Source: Rhizophagus irregularis (Eukaryota). Taken from it: DNA of 64,000 nt. Location of the stretch: the NCBI RefSeq assembly GCF_026210795.1, contig NC_089429.1, forward strand, positions 2,790,001 through 2,854,000, read 5' to 3'. Shown piece by piece: positions 12,150 to 51,224 of this stretch. Position 1 is the first letter of the stretch. Each line of letters begins with the position of its first letter. Below the pieces are notes generated by a model. That model was not told where the DNA came from. It worked only from the letters and a program-made list of their open reading frames with translations, and searched no databases. The translations under genes were made by a program, and so were the position numbers.

Positions 12150-12827
12150 TATCATGTTACTCCAAATAAAATGAAACGACTTTTTTGGAATGATGAGAAT
12201 ATGTTATTCTGATCAAGAGGAAAAAATCACAAAATCACATGCACTAGGGAGATAACAGGTTAACAAGAATATAATCAAAAGTTAAAAACAATAAAACACA
12301 CCCGTTCTCTTGCCACTTTTTATCGAGATTAATGTTTTCCCAGAATTCCTTTATCCCATGTGTTTCATCCTTACAAAAAAAGAATGGAAAGTTAAAATTT
12401 TGACGAGTATGAATAGAAGATTTACAATTACAATTACAGTCACAATTACGAACTAGGAACGGCACCCATCACCCGGGTAGGAACGGCACCCCCCGAGCTG
12501 TTCGAAACAGGATATTACATTGTAGGAACGGCACCCCATACCTCGGAGTAGGAACGGCACCCCTCCAAGGCTATGCAACTCCTGTTTAAGAAAATGGAGA
12601 TTAAGTACCTTCTGTAATAGTGAAGTCGCAACTTTAACTTGCTCATTATCTCGTTTCTCAGACACAATTCTTTTTAGAACATTACGATATCGCTTTCGCA
12701 AAGCGGAGTTCTCAGAGAGTGACACGTCTTGATCAGTAGACATAAATACCGGTTTTAACGTTTCTAAAAAACTCAGATATGACCAATCTGAAGGAGGAGT
12801 ATCATTGAAATACGAATCGCAGAACAT
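12150..12827 (-). pseudogene. 5' part of a paralog of the 33301-36471 gene, truncated
   Basis: Exon 1 (12827-12609) MFCDSYFNDTPPSDWSYLSFL matches MGDPQTYFEEHATWSLISFL. Intron 1 (12608-12370) is at the equivalent position. Exon 2 DETHGIKEFW matches DEKSSPDVEAFW. The 3' boundary is approximate. Confidence 0.7.
12447..12588 (-). ncRNA. Intronic structured RNA element: 4 x GGGUGCCGUUCCUA in hairpin loops
   Basis: Exact 14-mer at 12454, 12478, 12523 and 12549. Flanking stems CCUUGGAG/CUCCGAGG and GCUCGGG/CCCGGGU; closing stems AAACAGGA/UCCUGUUU and CGAAC/GUUCG. Confidence 0.65.
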
Positions 12828-13181
12828 ATCTGAAAATTACAATCAATTAATACTGCTAGAAAAAAGTGTAAATGTGATCTACTTATTTACCTAAATGTGA
12901 TTTCATTGACACCGACATAACGAAAGAGTCTTTGTAAATCGTGAAAGAGAAGTAGTAACACGAACGCGAATTTTTTTACGATATACTGCGCCAGATTTCG
13001 TGACATGTGATTGATTAGTCAGATGTGGGGGCTGATCGCCGCCGGCGATAAATGGCAAACTCCTATTTATTATATTAATTATATTTAATATAATCGATAT
13101 AATTATTTTATTTATGTATTATATTTAATTTATTTATTATATTTATTATATTAGATATATTTATTAGAATTTTTATAACTA

Positions 13182-17369: not shown

Positions 17370-17669
17370 TATACATGCTGCCCAAATTATTTAGGGATGT
17401 CATAATTATAATTTGGGATGCCATAATTCATTTAATTTACATATAATTTACTATGTAAAGTGCCAAAATAATTTGGGATGCTATAATTGAATTTGGGATT
17501 TTACACAGGTCGAAAAGTTAAAAATCAGGCACCAATCGGTCACCAATCAGGTAGCTGATTGGTGACTGATTGGTGACTGATTGGTGACTGATTGATGCCT
17601 GATTTTTCACTTTTTGACCTGTGTTACTTATAATTATGGCAGCCCAAAATAATTTAAGTGGCATGTATA
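17370..17669. mobile_element. hAT-type MITE inserted in the integrase
   Basis: TIR tatacatgc; perfect 8-bp TSD atactaat (17362-17369, 17670-17677). Removal restores VIILMNEH. Confidence 0.9.
17504..17623. mobile_element. 120-bp MITE with CACAGGTC termini nested in the hAT MITE
   Basis: TTA|cacaggtcgaaa ... ttgacctgtg|TTA, with internal tgattggtgac repeats. Confidence 0.85.
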
Positions 17670-18675
17670 ATACTAATGAACGAACATGGTATCCAAATTC
17701 AACTAGCTAATTCTAAAGAATCTATGGGTATTGTTGAGAGATTTAATTGTACACTTCAAGAATGGGTATTCTTTATTCAAGATAGTGTTGAAATGAGATT
17801 ACCTTCTACTAAGCACTGTCGAGCTTGGGTAAAAAACCTTCCAATTTTTCTTGTAGAGCTTGACAATTCTGTAACTCGACTTCTGGGTATTTCTCCTGCT
17901 AAAGCTCGAAAAAAAGAACATGTCTTTGCTAAAACTTCCAAGCCACAAGAAAGACCTATTGGGTTTGATAAACCTAGATTATCCCATGATGTCTTAATAA
18001 GATATTTGCTTAATCCTGGTGAATTAGAAAGTGGAAGACGATGTGCAACTAATTGTAATTGATCTCCCCAAATTTATCATATTCATGAATCTCTAGTGCA
18101 AAAAAATCAGCCGGTCTTGTACTGGCTAATAGCTAGATGATGAGGGCAATAGCCCAAAAAGATCTTTTGTAAGAAAAAAGCTTTAAATCGAAAGGCCATC
18201 CAGATGGGTGCTTACGAATTAGATTTCTAATTCATGAAGTTTAAGCATTTCGTTTACTTCTTCTATAGATCTTTTTGTATAACCTCTTCTTGGCTCGCAA
18301 ATAAAAGATATAATTTGTATAACTTTTCGATACTCTGATACACTTCTTCATTATACCAGTCTTTGTAATCTGCCATTCTTTCATTATAGGCTTTCTCATT
18401 TGGAGCTTGTTGCTTTGCTACATATCTGCAATGATCATCTGGGTCCCTTTTACGTCACATTGTTTTCAAATAACCTACATATGTCAATCCCATTTTATCA
18501 TATTTTTTTGTACCTTGGCTATATGCTATTTTGATTATCTCAACTAATGCCAATTCGATATCTTTATAGTTAACAATTTTGAATGTTTGTATTAATATAG
18601 CAAAAACTTTTGTTTAAAATAAAATATTTATTTCTTATTACCATGATAGGTGAATATTATTGCAATTATTTACTC

Positions 18676-22769: not shown

Positions 22770-23639
22770 TGTATATAAAAAAAACTAAAAAAACAAAAAT
22801 TTTTGAAATAATGTATGGATAAAGCTATTATTATTTTTTTGTAATATTACAACTTATAAATGTTTCTTATTAATATTTCGTATATCTGTTCTGTGACTTT
22901 AGAGCGTAATTTAGGCACATTAGTCAAAGGAAACATTTAAATCCTTCTTAAGTAAAGTTGTTCAGCAGGTTCGAATCTACTTATATATAAATTTTTATCA
23001 TGATTGAATATATATTTATGGATTTATTCATGTTTTTTGTAACACTACCTAGTGTTCTGAACGGATCGGATCAGACCGGATTTTAGTCAAATCTGATCTG
23101 ATCCGAATTCGAATCAAATAAAATCAGATTCGATTCGATCCGATTCGGATCTGAATTAGATTCGATCTGATCCGATTCGAATCCGAATTAGATTCGATCC
23201 GATCTGATCCGAATCCCAACTGATTTGATCTGATCCGATCCGGATCCGATCCAGATCCGAATCAGTTTTCATAATTAAATCAAATAAAAAAGTCTTTCAC
23301 AACATTTTTTTTTAATATAGTTATAAGACGTTGCGAAATGACTTTTTATTGACAAATTATCAAATAAAAAATATTTTTCGCAACGTTTTTATTAATACAG
23401 TTAAAAACTATTGCGAAAACGATTTTTATCGGTAAATTATCAAATAAAAACGTTTCGCAACATTTTTCATTAATACAGTTAAAAAACGTTGCGAAAGACG
23501 TTTTTTTATTAAATAAATATCTTTTCGCTACTTTTTTTACTAACACGGTTAAAAACTGTTGGGAAAAGCATTTTTTTTGTTAATGTATAAATAAAAACGT
23601 TAAAAAAACGGTGTTATATTATGAAAAAAATGACATTTC

Positions 23640-25230
23640 AGCATCTTTTCATATTATTTTATGAAAAAAGATGCTGAAAAGGCATCTTTTTCATTTTTTT
23701 TACAAAAAAGATGCTGAAACGGCATCTTTTCGTATTGTTTCATAAAAAGAGATGCCATTCGGCATCTTTTCGTATTATTTTATGAAAAAGATGCTGAAAC
23801 AGCATTTTTTCATTTTTTTTTATCAAAAAAGATGTCGAAACAGCATCTTTTCGTATTATTTCATGAAAAAGATGTTGAAACGCATCTTTTCGTATTATTT
23901 TATGAAAAAGATGCCAAACAGCATTTTTTTGTTTTTTTTATCGAAAAAGATAAAACTTTGCAGCATCTTTTCATATTAATTCATTAAAAGAGATGCCGAA
24001 ACGGCATCTTTTCGTATTATTTTATGAAAAAGATGCCGAAACGGCATTTTTTTTTATTTTTTTATCAAAAAAGATGCCATTTCAGCGTCTTTTCGTATTA
24101 TTTTATGAAAAAAGATGCCGAAACAGCATCTCTTTCATTTTTTTTATCAAAAAAGATGCCATTTTGCATCTTTTTCATTTTTTTATCAAAAAAGATGACG
24201 TTTCAGCATCTTTTCATATTATTTCATGAAAAGAGATGCCGAAACGGCATTTTTTTCATTTTTATCGAAAAAGATGCCGCTTTCAAGATCTTTTCATATT
24301 ATTTCATTTGAAAAGAGATCTTAAACGCATCTTTTCGTATTATTCATGAGAGATGCGAAACGGCATCTTTTCGTATTATTTCATTTGAAAAAGAGCATGC
24401 CAAACGGCATCTTTTCGTATTATTTCATTTGAAAAGAGATGCCAAATGGCATCTTTTCGATTATTATTTTATGAAGAGATCGAAAGCGCACTATTTTCGT
24501 ATTATTTAGAAAAGATGCTTTGAAACGGCATTTTTTTCATTTTTTTATCAAAAAAGATGCTGTTTCAAGGCTTTTCGTATTATTTTATGAAAAAAGATGC
24601 TGAAACGGCATCTCTTTCATTTTTTTTTATCAAAAAAGATGCTGTTTCGCATCTTTTTCATTTTTTTATCAAAAAAGATGCCGAAACGACATCTTTTTGT
24701 ATTATTTCATGAAAAGAGATGCCGAAATGGCATTTTTTTCATTTTTTATCAAAAAAGATGCCGAAATGGCATCTTTTCGTATTATTTCATGAAAAGAGAT
24801 GCTGAAACGCATCTTTTCGTATTATTTCAGCGAAAAGAGATGCTGAAATGGCATCTTTTCGTATTATTTTATGAAAAAGATCTTTGAAACGGCATTTTTT
24901 TCATTTTTTTATCAAAAAAAGATGCCGAAACAGCATCTTTTCGTATTATTTCATGAAAAGTGATGCCATTTCAGCATCTTTTCGTATTATTTTATGAAAA
25001 AAGATACCGAAACGGCATTTTTTCATTTTTTTTTATCAAAAGTATGTTTGCTGCATTTTTTTCATTTTTTTTTATCAAAAAAAGATGCTGTTTCGGCATT
25101 TTTTTCATTTTTTTTATCAAAAAAGATGCTGTTTCGGCATCTTTTCATATCATTTTATGAAAAAAAATGCCGTTTTTCAGCGTCTTTTTCATTTTTTTTA
25201 TCAAAAAAGCACCGAATTAGCGTTTTTTCA
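23640..25230. repeat. Tandem array, about 39-bp palindromic unit
   Basis: Repeats of aaaagatgccgaaacggcatctttt followed by cgtattattt or catttttttatc. Confidence 0.95.
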
Positions 25231-25409
25231 TAAAATTCTGATTTAATCTTTTAATTTATTGATGGTCAATTAACAAGTCTGCTTGACTTTACACATTATG
25301 TTTCATTTAAACTTTATTTATAATTAAATCTATTTACAAATGAATTAAACCTATTTATAATAATAGAGATATTATCAAAGATAAAATAAGAAATATTAAA
25401 ATTATTAAA

Positions 25410-27579: not shown

Positions 27580-27724
27580 AGTTAGCTTTACAAAAAAATA
27601 AACCGAAAATCTTTAAAAAAATTTTTTGGTGCTACATATGTTGGTTGATAAACATCATGATTATCAACTTAGTGTTCCAAACGGATCAAATCGGATGAAT
27701 CTGATTTTGACTCGAATCCATTAT

Positions 27725-30700
27725 TTAAAAAACGTTACGTAACGTTTTTGATTTCAATTTAACGAATAAAAAACCGTTTCGCAACAGTTTTTTAATCATT
27801 TAATAAAAAACGTTGCGAAACGTTTTTTATTCCAATTTAATGAAAAAAACCGTTTCGCAACGTTTTTTAATCATTTTAATAAAAACGTTGTGAAACGTTT
27901 TTTATTTCAATTTAATGAAAAAAACCGTTGCTAAACAGTTTTTTAATCATTTTAATAAAAACGTTCGCGAAACGCTTTTATTCCAATTTAACGAATAAAA
28001 AAACCATTTCACAACAGTTTTTAATATTTTAATAAAAAACGTTTGCAAAACATTTTTTTATTCAATTTAATGAAAAAACCGCTCTAACGGTTTTTTAATC
28101 GATTTTAATAAAAAACTGCGAACGCTTTTTATTCCAATTTAACGAATAAAAAAACCGCTTCGCAAAAGTTTTTAATTATTTTAATAAAAAAAATGTTGCG
28201 AAACGCCATTTCAATTTAATTTGAAAAAAACTGTTTCTAACGGGTTTTCAATTATTTTAATAAAAAACGCTTGCGAAATGTTTTTTATTTCAATTTTTAA
28301 TCGAAAAAAAAACCGTTTCGCAACAGTTTTTTAATATTTTAATAAAAACGCTTTACGAAACGCTTTTTTATTGCATTTAATAAAAAAACCAGTTCGCAAC
28401 GGTTTTTTAATATTTTGATAAAAACGTTGTGAAACGTTTTTTTATTTCAATTTAATGAAAAAAACCGGTTCGCAACGGTTTTTTGGAATATTTTGATAAA
28501 AAACGTTGAGAAACATTTTTTATTTCAATTTAATGAAAAAAACCGTTTCGCAACGGTTTTTTAATATTTGATAAAAAAACGTTACAAACGTTTTTTTGTT
28601 TCAATTTAATGAAAAAAAAACCGTTTCGCACCGGTTTTTTAATATTTTAATAAAAAAACGTTGCGAAACGTTTTTTTATTTCAATTTAATGAAAAAAACC
28701 GGTTCGCAATGGTTTTTTAATATTTTAATAAAAAAAATGTTGCGAAACGTTTTTTTATTTCAATTTAATGAAAAAAAAAACCGTTTCGCAACGGTTTTTT
28801 AATATTTTAATAAAAAAACGTTGAGAAACGTTTTTTATTTCAATTTAATGAAAAAAAAACCGTTGCGAAACAGTTTTTTAATCATTTTAATAAAAAACGT
28901 TGCGAAACGTTTTTATTCCAATTTAACGAATAAAAAACCGTTTCACAAGCGGTTTTTAATATTTTAATAAAAAACGTTTGCAAAACATTTTTTTATTCAA
29001 TTTAATGAAAAAACCGTTCCGTAACGGTTTTTTAATCATTTTAATAAAAAACTGCGAAACGTTTTTATTCCAATTTAATCAATAAAAAAAACCGTTTCGC
29101 AACAGTTTTTAATTATTTTAATAAAAACGCTATTAAACGAAACGTTTTTTTATTTCAATTTAATGAAAAAAACTGTTTCGCAACGGGTTTTCAATTATTT
29201 TAATAAAAAATGTTGCGAAATGTTTTTTATTTCAATTTTTAACAAAAAAACCGTTTCGCAACGGTTTTTTAATATTTTAATAAAAAACGTTTGCGAAACG
29301 TTTTTTATTGCAATTTAATGAAAAAAAACCAGTTCGCAACGGTTTTTTAATATTTTGATAAAAACGCTTGCGAAACGTTTTATTTCAATTTAATGAAAAA
29401 AACCGTTTCGCACCAGTTTTTTAATATTTTGATAAAAAACGTTGCGAAACGTTTTATTTCAATTTAATGAAAAAACCGTTTCACAACGTTTTAATATTTG
29501 ATAAAAACGTTGAAGAAACGTTTTTTTGTTTCAATTTAACGAAAAAAACCGTTTCGCACCGGTTTTTTAATATTTTAATAAAAAAACGTTGAGAAACGTT
29601 TTATTTCAATTTAATGAAAAAAAACCGGTTCGCAATGGTTTTTTAATATTTTAATAAAAAAAATGTTGCGAAAGCGTTTTTTATTTTCATTTAATGAAAA
29701 AAAGCGGTTTCGCAGCGGTTTTTTAATATTTTAATAAAAAGCGTTGAAAGCGTTTTTTATTTCAATTTAATGAAAAAAAACCGTTCGAAACAGTTTTTTA
29801 ATCATTTTAATAAAAAGCGTTGCAAAGCGTTTTTATTCCAATTTAATTTAATAAAAAAAACCGTTTCATCAGCGGTTTTTAATATTTTAATAAAAAAAGC
29901 GTTTGCAAAACATTTTTTTATTCAATTTAATGAAAAAAACCGTTCCGTAACGGTTTTTAATCATTTTAATAAAAACTGCGAAACGTTTTTATTCCAATTT
30001 AACGAATAAAAAAAACCGTTTCGCAACAGTTTTTAATTATTTTAATAAAAAAACGTTGCGAAACGTTTTTTTATTTCAATTTAATGAAAAAAAACTGTTT
30101 CGCAACGGGTTTTCAATTATTTTAATAAAAAATGTTGCGAAATGTTTTTTATTTCAATTTTAAACGAAAAAAACCGTTTACGCGGTTTTTTAATATTTTA
30201 ATAAAAACGTTTGCGAAACGTTTTTTATTGCAATTTAATGAAAAAAAACCAGTTACGGCAGTTTTTTAATATTTTGATAAAAAAATGTTGCGAAACGTTT
30301 TTTATTTCAATTTAATGAAAAAAAAACCGTTTCGCACCGGTTTTTTAATATTTTGATAAAAAAGCGTTGCAAAACGTTTTTTTTATAATTTAATGAAAAA
30401 AAACCGTTTTCACAACGGTTTTTTAATATTTTGATAAAAAACGTTGCGAAACGCTTTTTTATTTCAATTTAATGAAAAAAACCGTTTCGCAACGGTTTTT
30501 TAATATTTTAATAAAAAACGCTGAGAAACGTTTTTATTTCAATTTAATGAAAAAAAGCCGTTTCGCACTTGGTTTTTTAATATTTTAATAAAAAGCGTTG
30601 CGAAACGTTTTTTATTTCAACTTTAAGAAAAAAACCGTTTCATGAATGCGGTTTTTAATCATTTTAATAAAAAATGTTGTGAAACGTTTTTTATTTCAAT

Positions 30701-31080
30701 TTAATGAAAAAAACCGCTTTTGCAACGGTTTTTTAATATTTTAATAAAAAAACGTTGCGAAACGTTTTTTTATTTCAATTTAATGAAAAAAAACCATTTC
30801 GCAACAGTTTTTAATCATTTTAATAAAAAAACGTTGCAAAACGTTTTTTTATTTCAATTTAATGAAAAAAACCGTTTCGCAACAGTTTTTTAATATTTTA
30901 ATAAAAAAACATTGCGAAACGTTTTTATTTCAATTTAATGAAAAAAAACCGTTTCGCAACGGTTTTTTAATATTTTAATAAAAAACGTTGCGAAACGTTT
31001 TTTTATTTCAATTTAATGAAAAAAAACCATTTCGCAACGGTTTTTTAATATTTTAATAAAAATGTTGCGAAAGCGTTTTT
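27725..31080. repeat. Tandem array, about 80-bp dimeric palindromic unit, about 3.3 kb
   Basis: Alternating aaaaccgtttcgcaacggtttt and aaaacgttgcgaaacgtttt subunits. Confidence 0.95.
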
Positions 31081-31374
31081 AACAATTAACTTAACAATTG
31101 CAACGTTTTCAATTTAATAACAGGGCATTTTTTCATCTTATTTTTATGAAAAAAGGCTTTTTGATCTGATCCGTCAGGATCGATCGGATCGTCAAATCTG
31201 AATCTGATCTGATCTGATTTGTATGAATTGTTGATCCGATTTGATTCGATCCGAATCGGATCAAATTTTTTTGATTCGGATCGGATCACGGATCATAAAA
31301 TCTATGATTCGATCTGATCTGTCTCGGATCAGATCCGCGGATACGGATCAGATCGGATTTTTTTTGGAACATTA

Positions 31375-32854: not shown

Positions 32855-33552
32855 GTTTTTGCGAAAATAATAAAAATTTATATAAAAAAAACAGTAATAA
32901 AACTTAACAATTTCAATATTCTTACTTGTCAAAAACACTTAGCCAAAGGTTTGAACGATTGGTTTGACGTTGGAACGATTGGTTAGACGTTAGAACACGT
33001 TAGAACGATTGGTTAAATCAAAAAAAAAAAAAAAAAATTTTTTTCTTGTGTGTTCGCATCAGCTGCGCAAATCACGGGTGCAGAAATCATCTGATCAGTG
33101 ACCTTAAAAGGCCCAATTATTACAATACGCTCATATGGCCCGAAATGTGTTATCCGGTTTCCTAAATCATTGAATCATTGGATGATGCGCAATCTCGTGA
33201 AACGTACAACTATAAAATCAGGAGCATGCGCTGATCGCTGTCACGCTTTAGTGAAGTAAAAATTATAACGCGTAACCCGTCGCAAATACCACCACTTAAA
33301 ATGGGTGACCCACAAACATACTTTGAAGAACACGCAACCTGGTCGTTGATTTCTTTCTTGCAATACAGACGACAGTATGCAAAAGATTTCACAAGAGATA
33401 AACTTAAAGAGCATAGGAAATATACGAAAGAACTTGATAAAATTATTTCAAATAATGAATCAAAGGAGAAATGTGATCAAGCTCAAAAATGTCTTAACGA
33501 CTTTGATGTACGTGTTTTTATATAAATATTTATCAATTAACTAAGATAGAAG

Positions 33553-33693
33553 CCCTGAGTAGCTGGCTGACTGCGTCTCGGCCAGTGATAGTGAACCGCG
33601 CCTTCCCTCGGGGAATAGACTGCGCCTCTATTTCCATGTTGCAACTAGGAACTGCGTCTTTCTGGTTGTTAGACTGCGTCTCGTTTCATGGAA
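33553..33693 (+). ncRNA. Intronic structured RNA element: 5 x ACYGCGYCU in hairpin loops
   Basis: Motif at 33570, 33595, 33619, 33651 and 33673. Stems GCUGGCUG/CGGCCAGU, AAUAG/CUAUU and CAACUAGGA/UUCUGGUUG; closing stems CCCUGAG/CUCGGGG and UUCCAUG/CAUGGAA. Confidence 0.65.
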
Positions 33694-34115
33694 TATATCT
33701 CCTATTCCTTTGATTATAATGATAAGTTTTGGTTATTTGATTAGACTCATATATTCTCTGTTTTATAAGGACGAGAAATCATCTCCAGACGTAGAAGCTT
33801 TTTGGATATCGGACACGATATATCTTACCAAGGTGAACAGATTACTATCTATAGATTCTTATTTTAACGAGAAATTGACTTAACCATACTTAATAGTTAA
33901 ACTATGCAAAATCTGCGTTGGATAAAACCGTCGAAGAAGCAAAGGAAATACGAACAATTGTGTCTGATGAAACGATATCCATACTAAGAGACGGTGTAAG
34001 TTATTCTGTGAGAGTATATGTGCATTTTTTTTTAACCTTGTTGTTTATCCATAATGAATTACTGTGCAATTTTGGTACTAGAACACTGTTCCGCATGTTA
34101 AGACTCCTGAATCGA

Positions 34116-34782
34116 AGCGAGCGCCAGATAGTGATAGTGAAAGCAACGAAAAGGTTAGTATAAATGTAACACAGATAATGTATTATACAAAGGTTTATGT
34201 GTATATTAATTTTATATATTTCACAAGCCAGGAAAGCGCACAAAGACCGAAGATGATGAGTATCATGATGATGATGAATCAGAGCGAGCGCCAGATAGTG
34301 ATAGTGAAAGCAACGAAAAGGTTAGTATAAATGTAACATAGATAATGTATTATACAAAGGTTTATGTGTATATTAATTTTATATATTTCACAAGCCAGGA
34401 AAGCGCACAAAGACCGAAGATGATGAGTATCATGATGATGATGAATCAGAGCGAGCGCCAGATAGTGATAGTGAAAGCAACGAAAAGGTTAGTATAAATG
34501 TAACACAGATAATGTATTATACAAAGGTTTATGTGTATATTAATTTTATATATTTCACAAGCCAGGAAAGCGCACAAAGACCGAAGATGATGAGTATCAT
34601 GATGATGATGAATCAGAGCGAGCGCCAGATAGTGATAGTGAAAGCAACGAAAAGGTTAGTATAAATGTAACATAGATAATGTATTATACAAAGGTTTATG
34701 TGTATATTAATTTTATATATTTCACAAGCCAAGAAAGCGCACAGAGACCGAAGATGATGAGTATCATGATGACGAATCAGAA
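34116..34782 (+). repeat. Tandem exon+intron duplication, 167-bp unit x4
   Basis: Unit starts at 34116, 34283, 34450 and 34617; each is a 74-nt intron plus a 93-nt exon (PGKRTKTEDDEYHDDDESERAPDSDSESNEK). Confidence 0.95.
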
Positions 34783-36687
34783 AGTGATGAAAGTGACGAT
34801 GAATGTGAGTTAAGCTAAGCGTGGAAGAAATGGGATTTGACGAGTACGTTGATCGAAATGATCAACCTGTAAGTATATTTTTTTCTTAAGGTTGATTGTA
34901 AGTACGATTTTTTTAAAACAATAATCGTTTTATAGTTCATTTTCAAAACAAAAAACATACCGTCACTATTTGAGTCATATCGATCCAAAGCGTTAGCTCA
35001 TGCGCAAAATTCTGGTCTGATAATGACGAAAAATTATCACGAAATATTGTAGGTAGAACTTTTAAATGTAATGTCTTTTTAATGATTAACTTTGCTGATG
35101 GAGGTTGATTATTATTTTTTTTTTGAAAATTCAGGAGTCTATCCCATATTCTTTTATTACAAATGGATAATTATTCGGAAACGCAAGTAAAAACGTTCTC
35201 TAGGGAAACGCTCGAAGATCTTAGAAAGGATATTAAATCAAAGTTAATCGGAAAAGAAAAAGTAACAAGGGACGTAAAATCAATCCTACAAGAGTGCATT
35301 GAGGTTCGTATTTTTTTATTATCATCATTCTTTTGCAATGTTCCCTTTACTGACTATCTTGCTTAGATTGCTCTTGACGATAATGATGGTGGATTACACG
35401 AACTTCGCGAAACCATCACTGAATCTTTTTCGAAAAAATTTAATTCAACAGCAGAGAAAGAATTTCTTCGACGAATGAAGTTTCTCTTTGAACATCTGTA
35501 AGTTTTGATATCTCTTAGTTAAGCAACTTTTTGAAATGGCTGTTAACAAGATTTTTTCTTGCTACTTTGCAGGTCTTATACTATCCCATTACATCCATTG
35601 AAAGAAATTATAAGCGAAGGGACACTTGTGGCGAATATAATAAGTCCGGTGTTACGAATTTTTTTTCATGACTCATACATATATCCCACGATATGGCCGA
35701 ACACATCCAGCACCAGCGCAAAGGTCCGAAAACTTGCCATCGGTGATCCTTCCCGGGCTAAACAACCCGATATGATCGGGAAAATTGTCAATAATGGTAC
35801 TTATATAAAAAACAGTTAATCATAAAAAATACAAATAAATCTGTTCTAATTATTTCTTTAACATAAACAGGAAAATTTGTTTATGAATCGATGTTCGGTG
35901 AGGTGACGGGAGAAGGAAAAAATAACACGGAAAAAAAGAATCTAATCGACCTGGTTAGATTGGGGATATTTATGAAAGATTCCCTTGATAATATTTCGCG
36001 TAAGACCGGTGTCAATCGGATTTTCGGTTGGCAAGTTATTGGTAAGCTGGTCTTCCAGGAACGCTTGTTTTAACTAACTTATCCTACCTAATTAATGATT
36101 CTTCATGTAATAAATAGTGACAAAGTGGACCGGTTATATGATGACATTAATTAGTCCAGGGATTTACGTTATGGTTGACACTGGTAGTGTAGATCTTCCA
36201 AGATCTTTCGAAGTATGCAATACGTTTCTATCTGGTCTGGATACGCTGTTTGCATTTCAGGTATAACTTAGGAATATCAATATTACTTGTTAATTCTGTA
36301 TAAATGACTAATTCAAAACTGTTCCTCTAGATAGCATATGAAAAAACAATAATGGATATCCTCTCAATTATGAATAAAAGTGAAGAAGTTGAGAGTAATG
36401 ATAATTTTAAAGGATGGCGTCGATCAACACTTGGAACACCATCGTTCAAAAAAATTGTGAAGTTCAAATAACTATCAAATAAGATATTACTTGTTAATAG
36501 AACATATATTTACGTAATATTAATCAACTAATTATATTCTATATCAGCTGTTTCTTTCTTTTTCAATATTAATAAAGTTGTTTGCTCGCAATCCGGTTTT
36601 AATTTTCATGAATTGACCTTACTATATATATATAATACGCACATTATATTTATAAAATGCATATATACAAAAAGACAGAATCAAACC

Positions 36688-37374
36688 TTATTTGTCCAAT
36701 TTCAGGGGTATATCCCAACCTAATCTAGTTGTGAGAGGATCATCAGTTGCTTTAGTAAAATCGAAGACCACAAAATTCCGATCTCGCAAATGTTTGTCAA
36801 TAATCTTGGAAGCTTTTTTAGAGTTATCCGTATACTGACGTACGATTCTGGCTATATCATCCCGACTTCCCGCCCCTCGAAAAAGGGCTAAATGCGTGAT
36901 ATTCTCACGAATAATTTTAGGAGTTTGTGTATACTTCTGGCTCACGTATATACTTGATACACCTTGATGTCGGCCACTGATAAAATATGGAACAATCCGG
37001 TCCTGAATTTTCTTTGATTCAGCGCAAAGGTCCTCAAAGACTACAACAGTGTTTCTATCTGGTGAGAACTTAGTTATATCTGGAATTGCACCTGCTTTTA
37101 ATGCACGAAATGTCACGTTCTCCCGATATGTTTTTGGGCCCTTCGAAAAAATTTCGTAACAGTTTTTCACTAATACCCATTTGGGCTCATGGATATGCTT
37201 TCCGATTAAGACTAGATCATCATTTTTGACATACCGCTCCCCTTTCTTTTCCTTGAACAAACGTTGAATTTTATTTCCAAGAAGAAGATTAAGAATCATA
37301 TTGGTTTTTCCACTGTCTGATCCACCGCAAATTAACAAACGAAAGGGAAACGCAGGACTGGCAGGGTGATTCAT
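36688..37374 (-). CDS. A32-like (FtsK/HerA superfamily) DNA-packaging ATPase, Maverick/Polinton type
   Basis: Intronless 228-aa [18 protein letters not shown] (Walker A), VVVFEDL (Walker B), ISGRH (Arg finger), YVSQKY...PKIIREN. Confidence 0.85.
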
Positions 37375-38109
37375 ATTCTTTGAATTTTTGGTCTCGTTAA
37401 GATGGTATATATGTTGTGCGTCAAGTGTCGATTTGCGTCAGATGCAGCTGACGTGCGTCAGATGTAAATTGATACTTGACAATAAAGTTTTCCTATAGTA
37501 AAAAATTTTTTTTACTAATAAAATTATTTTTTTATTCCGTAAGTAAATTTGTTTGTTACAATAAATTACACATATTGTGAAAATTTTATGGCTATTTAAC
37601 CTATGTTTAATTAAATATTGTAAATTTACTTGAAAAAACTTGTAATTTATTAATATTTTGAATGAAGTGTTTTCCATGAAACTGAGTCTAATCAATTTAA
37701 TATTACAGGTTTACATATTTTTTAACAAGATTAATAAACTTATTTAATAAAGAAATTTAGTTTAAGTTTGAAAATTTTAATTTAATTATAACTTAATTTT
37801 GCATATTTTATATCACAAGTGACGCGCGTCAGGTATCAATCTACGTTTGACAGCATAAGTAAAAATCGGTGTTATTGGCTAATTTATTTGTCACGTGATT
37901 CAATTTACGTGATCAGCAAATATATGTAACGCGTTATTTTAAAAAAAGGAAAAAAGGCTTAGATATATATCACATAATAACACATATTCAAATTTTTTAT
38001 GGAAGTTCAGCAGTCTTTTCTCAACCAAGATCCGGTTTCAGTTTGAATAGATCTGACTTTAGGTTAGATTTCTCTTAATAGTGATGACAAGAGGTTTTTA
38101 TAAGTGAAA

Positions 38110-45823: not shown

Positions 45824-48800
45824 ATGGTTAGATATCAATGCCAAATTTGTAAAAGAGAATTTTCAACTTACAGCGGTTTAAAACAATATGCCAATGTTAA
45901 ACATCATGGGAAAATGAGATCCTCCCAACTAAATGAGTCACCAGTACAGCAAAGATCTTTGTTGCAGCCATTAAGAGAAATGATAAGATCAGAACATGAT
46001 GCAAAACTTTGTAGCACGTCAATTATTATGCCAAATCCAACTACTTCGCAAGAAAAGCTTACATCACAGGATGATGATGATGAGATGAAGCAATTTGAAC
46101 CTTCATCTCAAGATGAAGACTTAGTAAATATTGCAAATGAGTTAGAAGATGAACCACGTTATCATTTGCAAAAAAGGTTACGGTCGAAGAGAGGGTCGAA
46201 GCAAATTTTGAAGAATCGGAAGCCAGAATCAGAATTAGTAAACTTTGAAGATACTGAATTCATTGATCCTGAAGACCTTCAGGGTGCGTCATTAGATGAT
46301 GCCATAGATGTAGTTGATGGAAAACCCACACCAGAGCGCATAGTAAAATGGCCGAATGATGCATATCGCGACTTTTTGGAGTTGATAGTAGAGGGTAATA
46401 TCTCTAATAAGATAGGTGATAAAATAATAAAGTTTTTCAACAAACATAATAATTTAGACAAATCACCATTGCCAAGTTCAACGAAAAATGGCAAGGATTA
46501 TCTTAATCAAATAAATTCACCTTTGATAGACTTTAAAGAAAAGGTTGTTGCGACCTATAATGAAATTAATTTTACCTTCTACTATCGCCCACTTTTTCAT
46601 GCTATTCAAGCTCTTCTGCAATGACCGGAAGTAGCCAATAACTTCGTCCATAAAGGAATCCAAAATAAAATGAAGGTCTGTATAATAATTTGATTTCCAT
46701 CTGCAATGATAAATTACATTATTTATGCTTATTTAGTTATTTATATTTTCAGGATGATAGAGCTGAAACAAGAATATTTGGCGAACCTTTCGAAGGTAAC
46801 TGGTGGTTAGAAACCGAAAAGAACCTTCCATCATTAAATCGACTATTATCCATCATCTTATACTCAGACACAACAACTTTCGATGGACTTGGGAAATCAT
46901 CAGGCTATCCAGTTTTTTTAACTCTTGGTAACATTCCAAATCATGTTCGAAATTTGCTGGAGGCTAAAATTCTTTTAGGATTTCTCCCTAAAGTCCAAGA
47001 TACAGGAATCAAAACAACAGAAAGTTTTTGAAGTTTACAGCGCGATGTATATCATAAATGCTTCAAAATTATGCTCCAACCTTTATTAGAAAAATCTGAA
47101 GCGCTATATTTTGGAATTAATGGACAAGTGATTACTTTCACTGCACGGATATCATTTTTTCTCGCAGATATGCTTGAAGTTGATGATATAACTGCGACAT
47201 ATAAAGGAGCGCAGTGCAAAATGCCATGCCATACTTGCATGGTTTTGCAAAGTAATTTGAACAATATGAGTCTTAAACTAGAGAACGTACCTCATAGAAC
47301 TCATGAAAATATGAAGCAAGTAATCAACGATGGCTAAGGAAAGGAGTATTCTGTGCATTCTGTTGAAAATTCCTTCTGGAAATTTCCGTAAATATCTTTA
47401 TATTTCTGTAATGAATTTCAAAGATGTAAATTTTTACACACGTATAATTTGTTTCAGAAATTTGAATATATACGAAGCCTGCGTTCCTGACCGTATGCAC
47501 CATATCGATCTTGAACTCTTCAAATACCAATTGGAATTTACACAAGATATTTTGAAGGCAGTCAGAGGAACAGAACTACAAAAAAAATTTGATGATCGAC
47601 TTCGTCAGATTCCTCGCTTCCCGGGTCTTAAACTCTTACATAAATTACGACATTTAAACGTACTTACTGCATCAGACTATCGTAACATAATGAAAATTGC
47701 CCTTTTTGCCTTAGATGAAATTTTTGAAGGAAACGAAATAACCTGTAAAGAACTTTGCGAACTTTACGCAAAGTTTAGTAAGATGTACATAATAAGCAGG
47801 AAAGAAATATATACTGAAGAAGATCTGAAAATTTTTGAAGTAAGTCAAAGTTCATAAAGTCACATTGGAAATCATCAACACACTAAAGATTATCAATTAT
47901 AGTCAGCAATTATTGATTGGTGCATTGATTTCAAAAAGATCTTCTCTCCATTGTCCACTACTGACTGCAATTTTCTGAAGTTACACAGTTGGCGGTATCA
48001 CGCAGGTAGGACGCTAGTAAACATACAGTATATGATTTTATCCTAATTTATTATGATTGTTTTCAGTGCCTGCTATTAGAAAATATGGTGCATTGAATGG
48101 GTTGTCAACGGAAACGTATGAAACCCTCCACAAATCATATGTCAAAACCCCATATCGGTTATCAAACAGAAAAGACGTAATGAGACAATTGGTGAACGCT
48201 GTTAGTTGAATCCGACATGACTAAAATCAATTTCTTTGAAATATACATACATTTAATAATATTTTTTATAGGTAAAACACAAAGAATTGACATCTTCTGC
48301 TAAAAAAGTTATTCATCATAAAGCCAAAGGATTTGGAAAAGTACTTTGGGAACTAACATTAGATAATATCGACCAAAAAATAAAATCGTTGAAAAAATCT
48401 GAAAATCTACCACATTTAAACTTCATTGAAGGGTTATCGCAATTAATTTCAACTTTAAATACCTTTCTGGACACATCTTCGCAGGAGTCCAAAAGTGACG
48501 AATTTTACATTAAAATTTATGATTCAGTACACCTGGAAGATAGACATATTTTAAGAATGACAGGAGAATTCCAAGATAAAGAATGGTTCAGTAATATTGC
48601 GGTAACTCCTGCAGAAGATCAAGAGCAATACAATTCGGATGAGGGAACTTGGTATGGAAAAGTAAATGAATGATTAAGATTGATAAAGTGTTGTATGTCA
48701 TTAATCAATTTTCTTTATAAGGTGTTGTTATTATTTAAATTCTTCCGAGGTTCTTTCAAAGAGCCATATGAACTTGCTCTGGTTCATTGGTTTGATATTA

Positions 48801-49462: not shown

Positions 49463-51224
49463 TTAGAATTCACCCACTAATCTTAGAATTTCTCTACTTT
49501 CTAGATGAACTGAATCATAAATTTTGATAAAAAAATCATTTTCTGAATCTTGCGAGGATATGTCTAAAAAAGTATCTAACGCTGTAATTATTTGTGCTAA
49601 TCCTTCAATATAATTTGGATGTGATGGATTTTCAGATTTTTTTAAAGATTTTATTTTTTCATCAATAGAGTCTAGATTTAATTCCCAAAGAATTTTTCCA
49701 AACCTTTTAGTTTTACGATAAATGACTTTCATACCGCTGGTAGTTGGAGTTAATTCTTTATGCTTTACCTGCAAAAATATTAATAGTTTAGTATTTATGG
49801 TTGGAGAAAAGTTAAAAAAATCTTATAAAACTTTTACTAACAGCGTTCACCAGTTATTGCATCACGTGTTTTTTATTTGTTGCTTGATATTGAATTTTAA
49901 TATATAATTTATGGAGCGTTTCGTAAGTCTCCATTGATAGGCCATTCAGTGCACTATATTTGACAATGGCAGGTACTGAAATAATTAAATTAAATTAAAA
50001 TTTGTATAAATTAATAGCCATCTTCAAATTATATTACCTGCATGATAACGCCAACTATGCAGCTTTAGAAAACTGCAATCTGTAGTAGATAATGGGAAGA
50101 ATATTCTTTTAAACTCGATGCACCAATCAATAATTGCTTCCTATTTTAGTTAGTAGTTAGATCATCTATTAACTTTTAAAAAAAGTTAATTTTTTTAATT
50201 TTTTCTTCTTACTTCAAAGATATTCAGTTCATTTTCGGTATATGATTCTTGTCTACTCATAGTATACATTTTATTAAACTTCGTGTAAAGTTCACAAAGT
50301 TCTTTACAAGTTATTTCATTTTCTTCACTGAAAATTTCATCCAAAGCAAAAATCGCTATCTTTATAATATGACTATAGTCTGATGATGCTGTCATTACTT
50401 TTAGTTGACCTACTTTACTTAACAATTTAAGGCCTGGAAAATGTGGAATTTGTCAAAGACATTCATTGAAAATCTTCTGTAATTCTAACTCTCCAACCTT
50501 TTTTAAGATTTCCTGCATAAACTCCAGTTGATATTTAAAAAGTCCAAGATCAATATGATGCATACGGTCAGGAATGCACGCTTCATAAATATTCAGATTT
50601 CTGTAAAAAATTTTATATATGTAAAAAAATTTTTACAACGTCGTCATTACTTATAAAATTTAGTGATATTTACAGAAATTCCCAGAAGGCATTTTTGACG
50701 TAATGTACAGAATACTCCTTTCCTTGTCCAGCGCTAACTATTTCCTTCATATTTTCATGAGTTCTGGAAAGTATATCTTCTCGTATAAGTTTCATATCGT
50801 TTAAGTTATTTTGCAGAACCATATAAGTATGGCATGCATCATGGCATTTTACATCACGCTACTTTATATGTAGCGGTCACATCATCTACTTCAAGCATAT
50901 CCATGAGAAAAAAAGAAATTTGTGCAGCAAATATTTTCGCTTGTTCATTAATCCCAAAACATAACGTATCAGGTTTCTCCAGTAAAGGCCAAAACATGAT
51001 ATTAAAGCATTTGTGAAATATTTCACGCTGCAAACTTCAAAAGACTTCAGTAGTTTTAATGCCTGAATCTTGAACTTTAGGCAAAAAACCTAAAAGTATT
51101 TTAGATTCTGGTAGATTTCAAATCCAATTTGGAACATTTCTAAGCGTTAAAAATACTGGATGGCCTGATGTCTTGCCCAGTCCATCGAAAGTAGTCCCAT
51201 CTGAATATAAGATGATAGACAATC
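49463..51224 (-). pseudogene. Second Plavaka-type transposase, truncated at both ends
   Basis: Collinear homolog of about 46850-48570 (LSIILYSDGTTFDGLGKTSGHPVF ... FGKILWEL ... LVGEF) with similarly placed introns. Confidence 0.85.

What the first reader, a model, noticed from the sequence alone, without database searches (positions are those of the whole stretch)
12370..12608. Paralog carries the same intronic architecture with a completely different loop motif
Seen: the equivalent first intron (239 nt, same phase, AAG acceptor before an Asp codon) holds four exact copies of GGGUGCCGUUCCUA. They are arranged as two domains, each a closing stem around one strong and one weak motif hairpin, as at 33553-33693. 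There is no obvious primary-sequence similarity to that intron, and G-U pairs again favour the sense strand. Inference: a conserved topology with a paralog-specific motif suggests co-evolving protein-RNA specificity pairs (a lock-and-key family). I do not know of a description of this in fungi.
Basis: partly seen in the sequence, partly recalled or inferred. Interest (0 to 1): 0.88.

Follow-up and report, generated by a model that had tools for sequence, protein, structure and literature searches.

The report
Paralog-coded intron hairpins in fungal nucleases
In soil fungi that live with plant roots, a family of predicted nuclease genes carries a repeated hairpin structure at one fixed intron position, with a loop sequence typical of each gene version, which each gene's own protein likely reads to limit its own production, a possible new set of matched protein-RNA pairs.

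Summary
Real. Four exact copies of a 14-mer lie in a 239-nt phase-0 intron of a Rhizophagus irregularis gene (A; broken in this assembly). A is a distant homolog of gene B at 33.3 kb; both have an unnamed four-helix N-domain and, in intact copies, a PD-(D/E)xK-like C-terminus. All 5 homologous metagenome loci (4 independent) carry repeated closing-stem/strong-hairpin/weak-hairpin domains in the same intron, with compensatory and G-U changes on the sense strand. Between B and its Ambispora ortholog 4 of 4 loops changed G to A at loop position 3, 0 of 20 other readable G's did. That points to a loop-reading factor, most likely the gene's own N-domain (inferred; binding untested). Corrections: it is A's second intron; A's loop is not wholly different (all types share a CG core); A's own fold competes with motif-motif pairing; a Funneliformis ortholog has mixed loops; no A-type ortholog intron or RNA-seq was obtained. 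B and L001/L002 sit next to the same A32-type packaging ATPase, suggesting mobile-element cargo. No Rfam, Pfam or fold match; no description found in 10 literature searches.

The parts
12891..12918 (-). Gene A small first exon (9 codons plus 1 nt), followed by a 61-nt AT-rich intron 12890-12830
   Evidence: P0001/P0060 N-terminus maps here; splice sites read
12609..12829 (-). Gene A exon encoding the four-helix N-domain (YF..WS..FL type)
   Evidence: 100% to R. irregularis P0001/P0002; profile match to B family
12370..12608 (-). Hairpin-array intron, 239 nt, phase 0, GC 44%
   Evidence: spliced out in models P0001, P0055, P0060
12505..12587 (-). RNA domain 1: long closing stem, strong hairpin (motif 12562-12549), weak hairpin (motif 12536-12523)
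   Evidence: z -3.43 sense; competing fold
12449..12504 (-). RNA domain 2: closing stem, strong hairpin (motif 12491-12478), weak hairpin (motif 12467-12454)
   Evidence: MFE but z +0.44
12302..12369 (-). Gene A next exon (..IKEFW..); frameshifted relative to intact orthologs, and the rest of the gene is absent from the window
   Evidence: P0055 has the same frame; no hit to P0060 C-terminal part
33301..33507 (+). Gene B exon encoding the N-domain (paralog)
   Evidence: AlphaFold model 4 helices, pLDDT 87
33508..33769 (+). Gene B hairpin-array intron with five CYGCGYC loops (33571, 33596, 33620, 33652, 33674)
   Evidence: covariation with L001/L002 units
33770..36471 (+). Rest of gene B, multi-exon, with PD..E nuclease-like motif near 35.76-35.92 kb
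   Evidence: tblastn to P0034/P0043; motif
36688..37437 (-). A32-type packaging ATPase ORF convergent with gene B; same neighbour in L001 and L002
   Evidence: Pfam Pox_A32 E 3.3e-10; 85-89% nt identity to L001/L002

Best explanation
The intron holds a repeated, sense-strand hairpin domain whose loops likely serve as binding sites for the small helical domain encoded by the exon just upstream, so that the protein would damp splicing or stability of its own pre-mRNA and keep a predicted nuclease at a low level. Shown: the repeats, their fixed intron position across the family, stem covariation in the B/L001 and C types, locus-typical loops, and exchange of C-terminal domains behind the same N-domain-plus-intron module. 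Paralog-specific loops would insulate the feedback of each paralog from the others in a shared multinucleate cytoplasm; intron retention would give a stop after 4-18 codons in 6 of 7 introns (51 in A), leaving the N-domain alone.
For: 5 of 5 confirmed metagenome loci carry the units in the same phase-0 intron. C-type units: 97.3% of 222 cells paired, 7 of 37 pairs compensatory, 0 of 500 shuffles; B/L001 units 95.8%, 2 of 19, 6 of 500. By my count, 41 G-U cells against 4 C-A cells, favouring the transcribed strand; sense folds better in 6 of 6 C units and in A and B. Concerted loop change: 4 of 4 loop-position-3 G to A vs 0 of 20 other readable G's in the intron, 7 of 93 in exons, 1 of 7 in the same trinucleotide context; position 3 is U in 4 of 4 L001 loops. 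Five of the Ambispora ortholog's 8 N-domain differences fall in helix 3. Shared stretch per loop (7-14 nt) is short for gene conversion (own knowledge). RNA type stays with the N-domain while C-termini differ: L001's long C-terminal exon has no blastp hit to any fetched protein although its RNA unit is 89% identical to B's. Other introns of B are about 60-90 nt, GC 19-33%. Precedent for intronic stem-loop autoregulation in a fungus: RPL22B (PMC4838235, abstract).
Against: No binding, splicing or expression data. N-domain has no fold or family match to an RNA-binding domain and is near neutral in charge. The concerted change is one comparison, read from a mis-predicted protein, not DNA; F. mosseae is mixed. 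C-type loops vary within loci and lose the CG in several copies. L001 units fold equally well or better antisense. For A itself there is no ortholog intron, and its fold is not dominant. Few, related sequences: shuffle counts are not probabilities. Hairpins do not cover the splice signals. Tree congruence is expected from linkage.
Confidence: 0.45

Rival explanations
1. The structure works without the family's protein: loops form tertiary contacts (CG-CG kissing, a conformational switch or an unknown ribozyme), or are read by a host RNA-binding protein for localisation or stability.
For: CG core is self-complementary and shared by all types; A's motif pairs with itself near-isoenergetically; junction sequences are conserved in C units.
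Against: G-to-A at position 3 is not compensated at position 6, so kissing does not explain it; a shared host reader would not favour paralog-specific loops; no CUGANGA or box C in 7 of 7 introns; no Rfam hit at gathering score.
Confidence: 0.2
2. The excised intron is an RNA antitoxin that binds and silences the cognate nuclease, as in bacterial type III toxin-antitoxin pairs, making the gene an addiction module of a mobile element.
For: Repeated structured RNA in the same transcript as a nuclease-like domain; neighbour A32 ATPase shared by B, L001, L002; 88-96% N-domain identity across Rhizophagus, Funneliformis and Ambispora.
Against: Near-identical RNA units go with unrelated C-termini; no evidence the intron persists; no pseudoknot found.
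Confidence: 0.17
3. The hairpins are single-stranded DNA signals (replication, packaging or excision) of a Polinton-like element that carries the gene.
For: A32 ATPase linkage; Polintons are known in R. irregularis (PMC7805220, passage).
Against: Always on the sense strand inside the same intron in 7 of 7 loci; A has MULE and retroelement neighbours, no ATPase; DNA folding of A's core is weak, z -1.0; no polymerase, capsid or terminal repeat found near B.
Confidence: 0.1
4. Neutral relic: an old inserted repeat homogenised by local duplication, with no function.
For: Units within a locus are often duplicates; A and L005 are broken genes; CG decay in some copies.
Against: Compensatory changes; exact 14-mers among 33%-identical flanks; loop-only concerted change; presence from Glomeromycota to a Jimgerdemannia model (peptide echo only).
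Confidence: 0.05

Closest known systems
Splicing autoregulation through an intronic stem-loop, yeast RPL22B/Rpl22p (PMC4838235, abstract seen)
   Same: Intronic stem-loop as proposed binding site of the gene's own product; negative feedback at the pre-mRNA.
   Different: Here an array of 4-6 or more loops in repeated three-way domains, loop sequence differs by paralog, host gene is a lineage-specific nuclease-like family; binding untested.
Crinkler/CR proteins with helical header plus REase domain (Zhang et al. 2016, seen only through passages of review PMC5289972)
   Same: Conserved N-terminal module recombined with variable C-terminal REase-like domains; link to mobile DNA; Atlas structure leads to HSDR_N and a Crinkler-containing cluster (under the naming bar).
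   Different: No Pfam Crinkler/ubiquitin-like header or LFLAK; no intronic RNA mentioned in the passages read; I could not check whether this header is one of their helical headers.
Type III toxin-antitoxin systems (ToxIN and kin; recalled)
   Same: Repeated structured RNA encoded with a nuclease; cognate specificity.
   Different: Eukaryotic, intronic, hairpins in three-way junctions rather than pseudoknots; PD-(D/E)xK-like not ToxN fold; RNA type does not track the nuclease domain.
Orthogonal hairpin-protein pairs of phages (MS2/PP7 coat-operator, lambdoid N-boxB; recalled)
   Same: Small protein reading a short hairpin loop, diverged into non-cross-reacting pairs.
   Different: No sequence or fold relation found; cellular eukaryotic gene family with arrays in an intron.

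Membership tests
Known Rfam RNA family (ribozymes, snoRNAs, cis-elements) | Match at gathering score | tested here: not met
   0 hits in window; only E 0.2-5.3 chance hits, none on the hairpin domains
Hammerhead ribozyme / box C/D | CUGANGA core or RUGAUGA box C | tested here: not met
   0 of 7 introns, both strands; consensus recalled
Crinkler (CR) protein | Ubiquitin-like LFLAK header (Pfam Crinkler) | tested here: not met
   No hit; domain is all-helical
Crinkler (CR) protein | One of the helical CR headers of Zhang 2016 | not testable with these tools
   Paper and supplements not held
Crinkler (CR) protein | C-terminal REase-fold domain | tested here: inconclusive
   (P/A)D...E-x-(K/S/T)-like motif in 7 of 8 long proteins (my regex); Atlas TM 0.33 to HSDR_N over residues 403-582; no Pfam, PDB-sequence or PADLOC nuclease hit; own model too poor, pLDDT 40
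Intronic autoregulatory element (RPL22B type) | Conserved intronic stem-loop on the sense strand | tested here: met
   Covariation in B/L001 and C types; for A itself by analogy only
Intronic autoregulatory element (RPL22B type) | Bound by the gene's own product with effect on splicing or mRNA level | not testable with these tools
   Needs binding and reporter assays
Type III toxin-antitoxin | RNA repeats bind and inhibit the cognate nuclease | not testable with these tools
   Indirect sign against: same RNA with unrelated C-termini
Polinton/PLV cargo | Linked A32 ATPase | tested here: met
   B, L001, L002; not A
Polinton/PLV cargo | pPolB, integrase, capsid, terminal inverted repeats around the gene | tested here: inconclusive
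   None found by Pfam in 67 ORF fragments scanned; fragments may be too decayed

The most novel reading that the evidence does not exclude
A eukaryotic family of portable 'header' cassettes, each a new small RNA-reading domain plus an intronic array of its own operator hairpins, has diversified into mutually insulated protein-RNA specificity pairs that keep swappable nucleases in check and travel on virus-like elements among the nuclei and species of arbuscular mycorrhizal fungi; a natural library of orthogonal RNA tags and possibly an RNA-based addiction system.
Probability: 0.3. Interest if true: 0.92.

Novelty: new variant of a known kind. Interest (0 to 1): 0.74.

Why it matters
Neither the RNA nor the protein domain is in the libraries searched, yet the element is conserved by covariation across a large uncharacterised Mucoromycota family. 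It gives a direct test of how new protein-RNA specificities arise (a G/A intermediate exists in nature), a handle on how AM fungi hold many nuclease-like genes in a shared cytoplasm, and possibly new orthogonal RNA-tag pairs. It also explains a recurrent annotation error: several public gene models read these GC-rich introns as exons.

Tried and rejected
No whole genome was available, so targets elsewhere in the genome and the paralog count are untested; within the window no other copy or complement of A's motif and no 6-7-nt loop complement in either pre-mRNA region. No RNA-seq evidence was obtained. Viral-contig scans for A, the A motif pair, the family pattern and the ATPase gave nothing usable; L006, L007, L008 are 12-22-residue matches and were dropped unexamined. 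Fold searches of the N-domain: best Z 5.2, no Foldseek hit at E 0.001: inconclusive. Full-length model unusable. The complex predictor was not available, so a dimer of the N-domain is untested. First tree dropped A; the second places it on a very long branch. Gene models using cryptic sites inside A's intron (P0053, P0057, P0058, P0059) disagree with each other and were not taken as evidence of alternative splicing. Mutation bias as cause of the loop change: not supported, small control. tdk drivers and AACRNL papers: passages show no link. Three look-ups of earlier scan findings were empty.

Full report
Organism and genes. The exon upstream of the finding is 100% identical to Rhizophagus irregularis proteins, and P0055 (DAOM 197198) has the window's reading of the next exon. 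Gene A (- strand) has a small first exon, the N-domain exon 12829-12609, the 239-nt intron, and one more exon; after that the gene is frameshifted and its remainder is not in the window. Intact versions exist in other strains and in Glomus cerebriforme (P0060, 628 aa). Gene B (+, 33301-36471) is apparently complete, with an internal 167-nt unit repeated four times.

Observation. Four exact 14-mers, nothing similar elsewhere in 64 kb, 0 of 100 shuffles. Flanks are 33% identical in register. But thermodynamic support is uneven: z -3.43 for domain 1, +0.44 for domain 2, -0.46 for the whole intron, and the motif's self-complementary part lets the two copies of a domain pair with each other with P about 0.3. 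The fold of A is therefore supported mainly by analogy.

Homology. A against a profile of 51 non-A family N-domains: 13.5 bits, best of 2000 shuffles 9.7, second-best of 1327 window fragments after B; hhalign 63.6%; the alignment extends into the next exon's FW motif (21.7%). The Atlas model of P0060 aligns over residues 124-614 with a 558-aa, 121-member Mucoromycota cluster, evidently the one that is the top feature hit of the B ortholog. A sits on a very long branch and lacks the family's YR, DF and EH residues. So: homologous, but far.

The family. Searches returned N-domain relatives from Rhizophagus, Funneliformis, Ambispora, Dentiscutata, Gigaspora, Racocetra, Diversispora, Entrophospora, Paraglomus and Jimgerdemannia. 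The domain is four helices, pLDDT 87, with no Pfam or fold match. C-terminal halves differ strongly between members but 7 of 8 long proteins have a (P/A)D...E-x-(K/S/T)-like motif; Atlas structure leads include HSDR_N and a cluster with 17% Crinkler, all under the naming bar. A restriction-endonuclease-like nuclease is likely, not shown.

The RNA is family-wide. The one metagenome scan gave 155 pattern matches, 5 confirmed loci (L001 and L002 are near copies). All 5 have a long (366-571 nt), GC-richer phase-0 intron at the same place with two or three repeated units. L001/L002 units align with B's domain 1 without gaps: 95.8% of cells paired, 2 of 19 pairs compensatory, 6 of 500 shuffles. L003-L005 carry a different, larger unit that contains the same closing-stem/strong-hairpin/3-4-bp-hairpin domain: 97.3% paired, 7 of 37 pairs compensatory, 0 of 500 shuffles, slid controls 36-58% (structure came from these sequences, so controls lean in its favour). 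One-sided changes are mostly to G-U, which works only on the transcribed strand. Mis-predicted public proteins that read through the intron echo these units in further species and suggest a fifth type with a repeated GA-UACG-UC word (inferred from two reading frames in two species).

Loops. A UGCCGUU (4 of 4), B CYGCGYC (5 of 5), L001 YYUCGYC (4 of 4), C UYUYGY, with a CG core in all types, lost in some C and L002 copies. C units also have a GGG-N6-CCU hairpin resembling A's GGG-N7-CCU. So A's motif is a variant on a theme, though covariance models of B and C types do not detect it. The strongest result: the Ambispora ortholog's read-through differs from B's intron at 8 of 51 codons; four are G to A at position 3 of loops 1-4, and none of 20 other G's where the change would show has changed (1 in 10,626 if placed at random). 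Exonic controls: 7 of 93, and 1 of 7 in the same context. One of the other four changes turns a U-G stem pair into C-G. F. mosseae is mixed (A in loop 3, G in loops 2 and 4) with an N-domain almost identical to B's, while Ambispora has five extra changes in helix 3. This fits stepwise drift of a purine-tolerant reader, and equally warns that specificity is not absolute.

Context. B is convergent with an A32-type packaging ATPase; L001 and L002 have the same neighbour at 85-89% identity although their gene bodies differ from B's. Polintons lacking a detected capsid are reported for this fungus (PMC7805220, one passage). A lies between MULE and retroelement remnants (and my reading of ORFs), L005 beside hAT-like sequence. 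The genes look like mobile-element cargo; element limits were not found.

Mechanism. Loops under locus-specific selection, displayed several times, next to the one exon that all members share, while the C-terminus is exchanged: the simplest reader is the N-domain, and the simplest purpose is negative feedback on a potentially harmful nuclease (0.45). Protein-free or host-read structure (0.2), RNA antitoxin (0.17), ssDNA signal (0.1) and neutral relic (0.05) remain. Tree congruence is expected from linkage and is not counted as proof.

Literature. Ten searches listed no paper describing these introns; I saw listings only, except passages of PMC5289972, PMC5294986, PMC7805220, PMC12930445, PMC12957317 and the abstract of PMC4838235. 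Zhang et al. 2016 and its supplements, which may list this N-domain as a CR header, were not available. The library lacks most subscription journals. Type III TA, phage operator pairs and ribozyme consensus motifs are recalled.

Verdict. Real, family-wide, apparently undescribed structured intron element with good evidence for selection on locus-typical loops; the lock-and-key reading is plausible and cheaply testable but unproven, and least tested for locus A itself.

Noticed in passing
window 36688-37437 (-); L001 2777-3540; L002 3032-3550: A32-type packaging ATPase conserved next to different members of the family, hinting at a Polinton-like element with exchangeable nuclease cargo.
   Followed up: partly
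window 34108-34781: A 167-nt exon-plus-intron unit of gene B repeated four times (97-99% identical), absent as a repeat in ortholog models; L001 has a 39-nt in-frame triplication in its acidic linker (886-1003).
   Followed up: no
window 17658-18062 (+): ORF resembling a Maverick-type integrase C-terminus by eye (recalled motif); no Pfam hit.
   Followed up: partly
L001 288-330 and 412-455: A second, different structured domain precedes each B-like unit; its peptide echo appears in Ambispora gerdemannii and Jimgerdemannia models (P0018, P0023).
   Followed up: partly
window 23600-25240 and 27690-31110: Long tandem arrays of about 41-nt and 78-nt palindromic AT-rich units flanking hAT transposase fragments (25.5-27.6 kb); the 41-nt unit contains ATGCCGTTT, close to A's loop, probably chance.
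   Followed up: no
window 46845-48500 vs 49536-51223: Kilobase-scale inverted duplication at about 76% identity.
   Followed up: no
P0053, P0057, P0058, P0059, P0033, P0036, P0038, P0041, P0043: Public gene models place cryptic exons in these GC-rich introns; could be annotation error or real unproductive splicing.
   Followed up: partly
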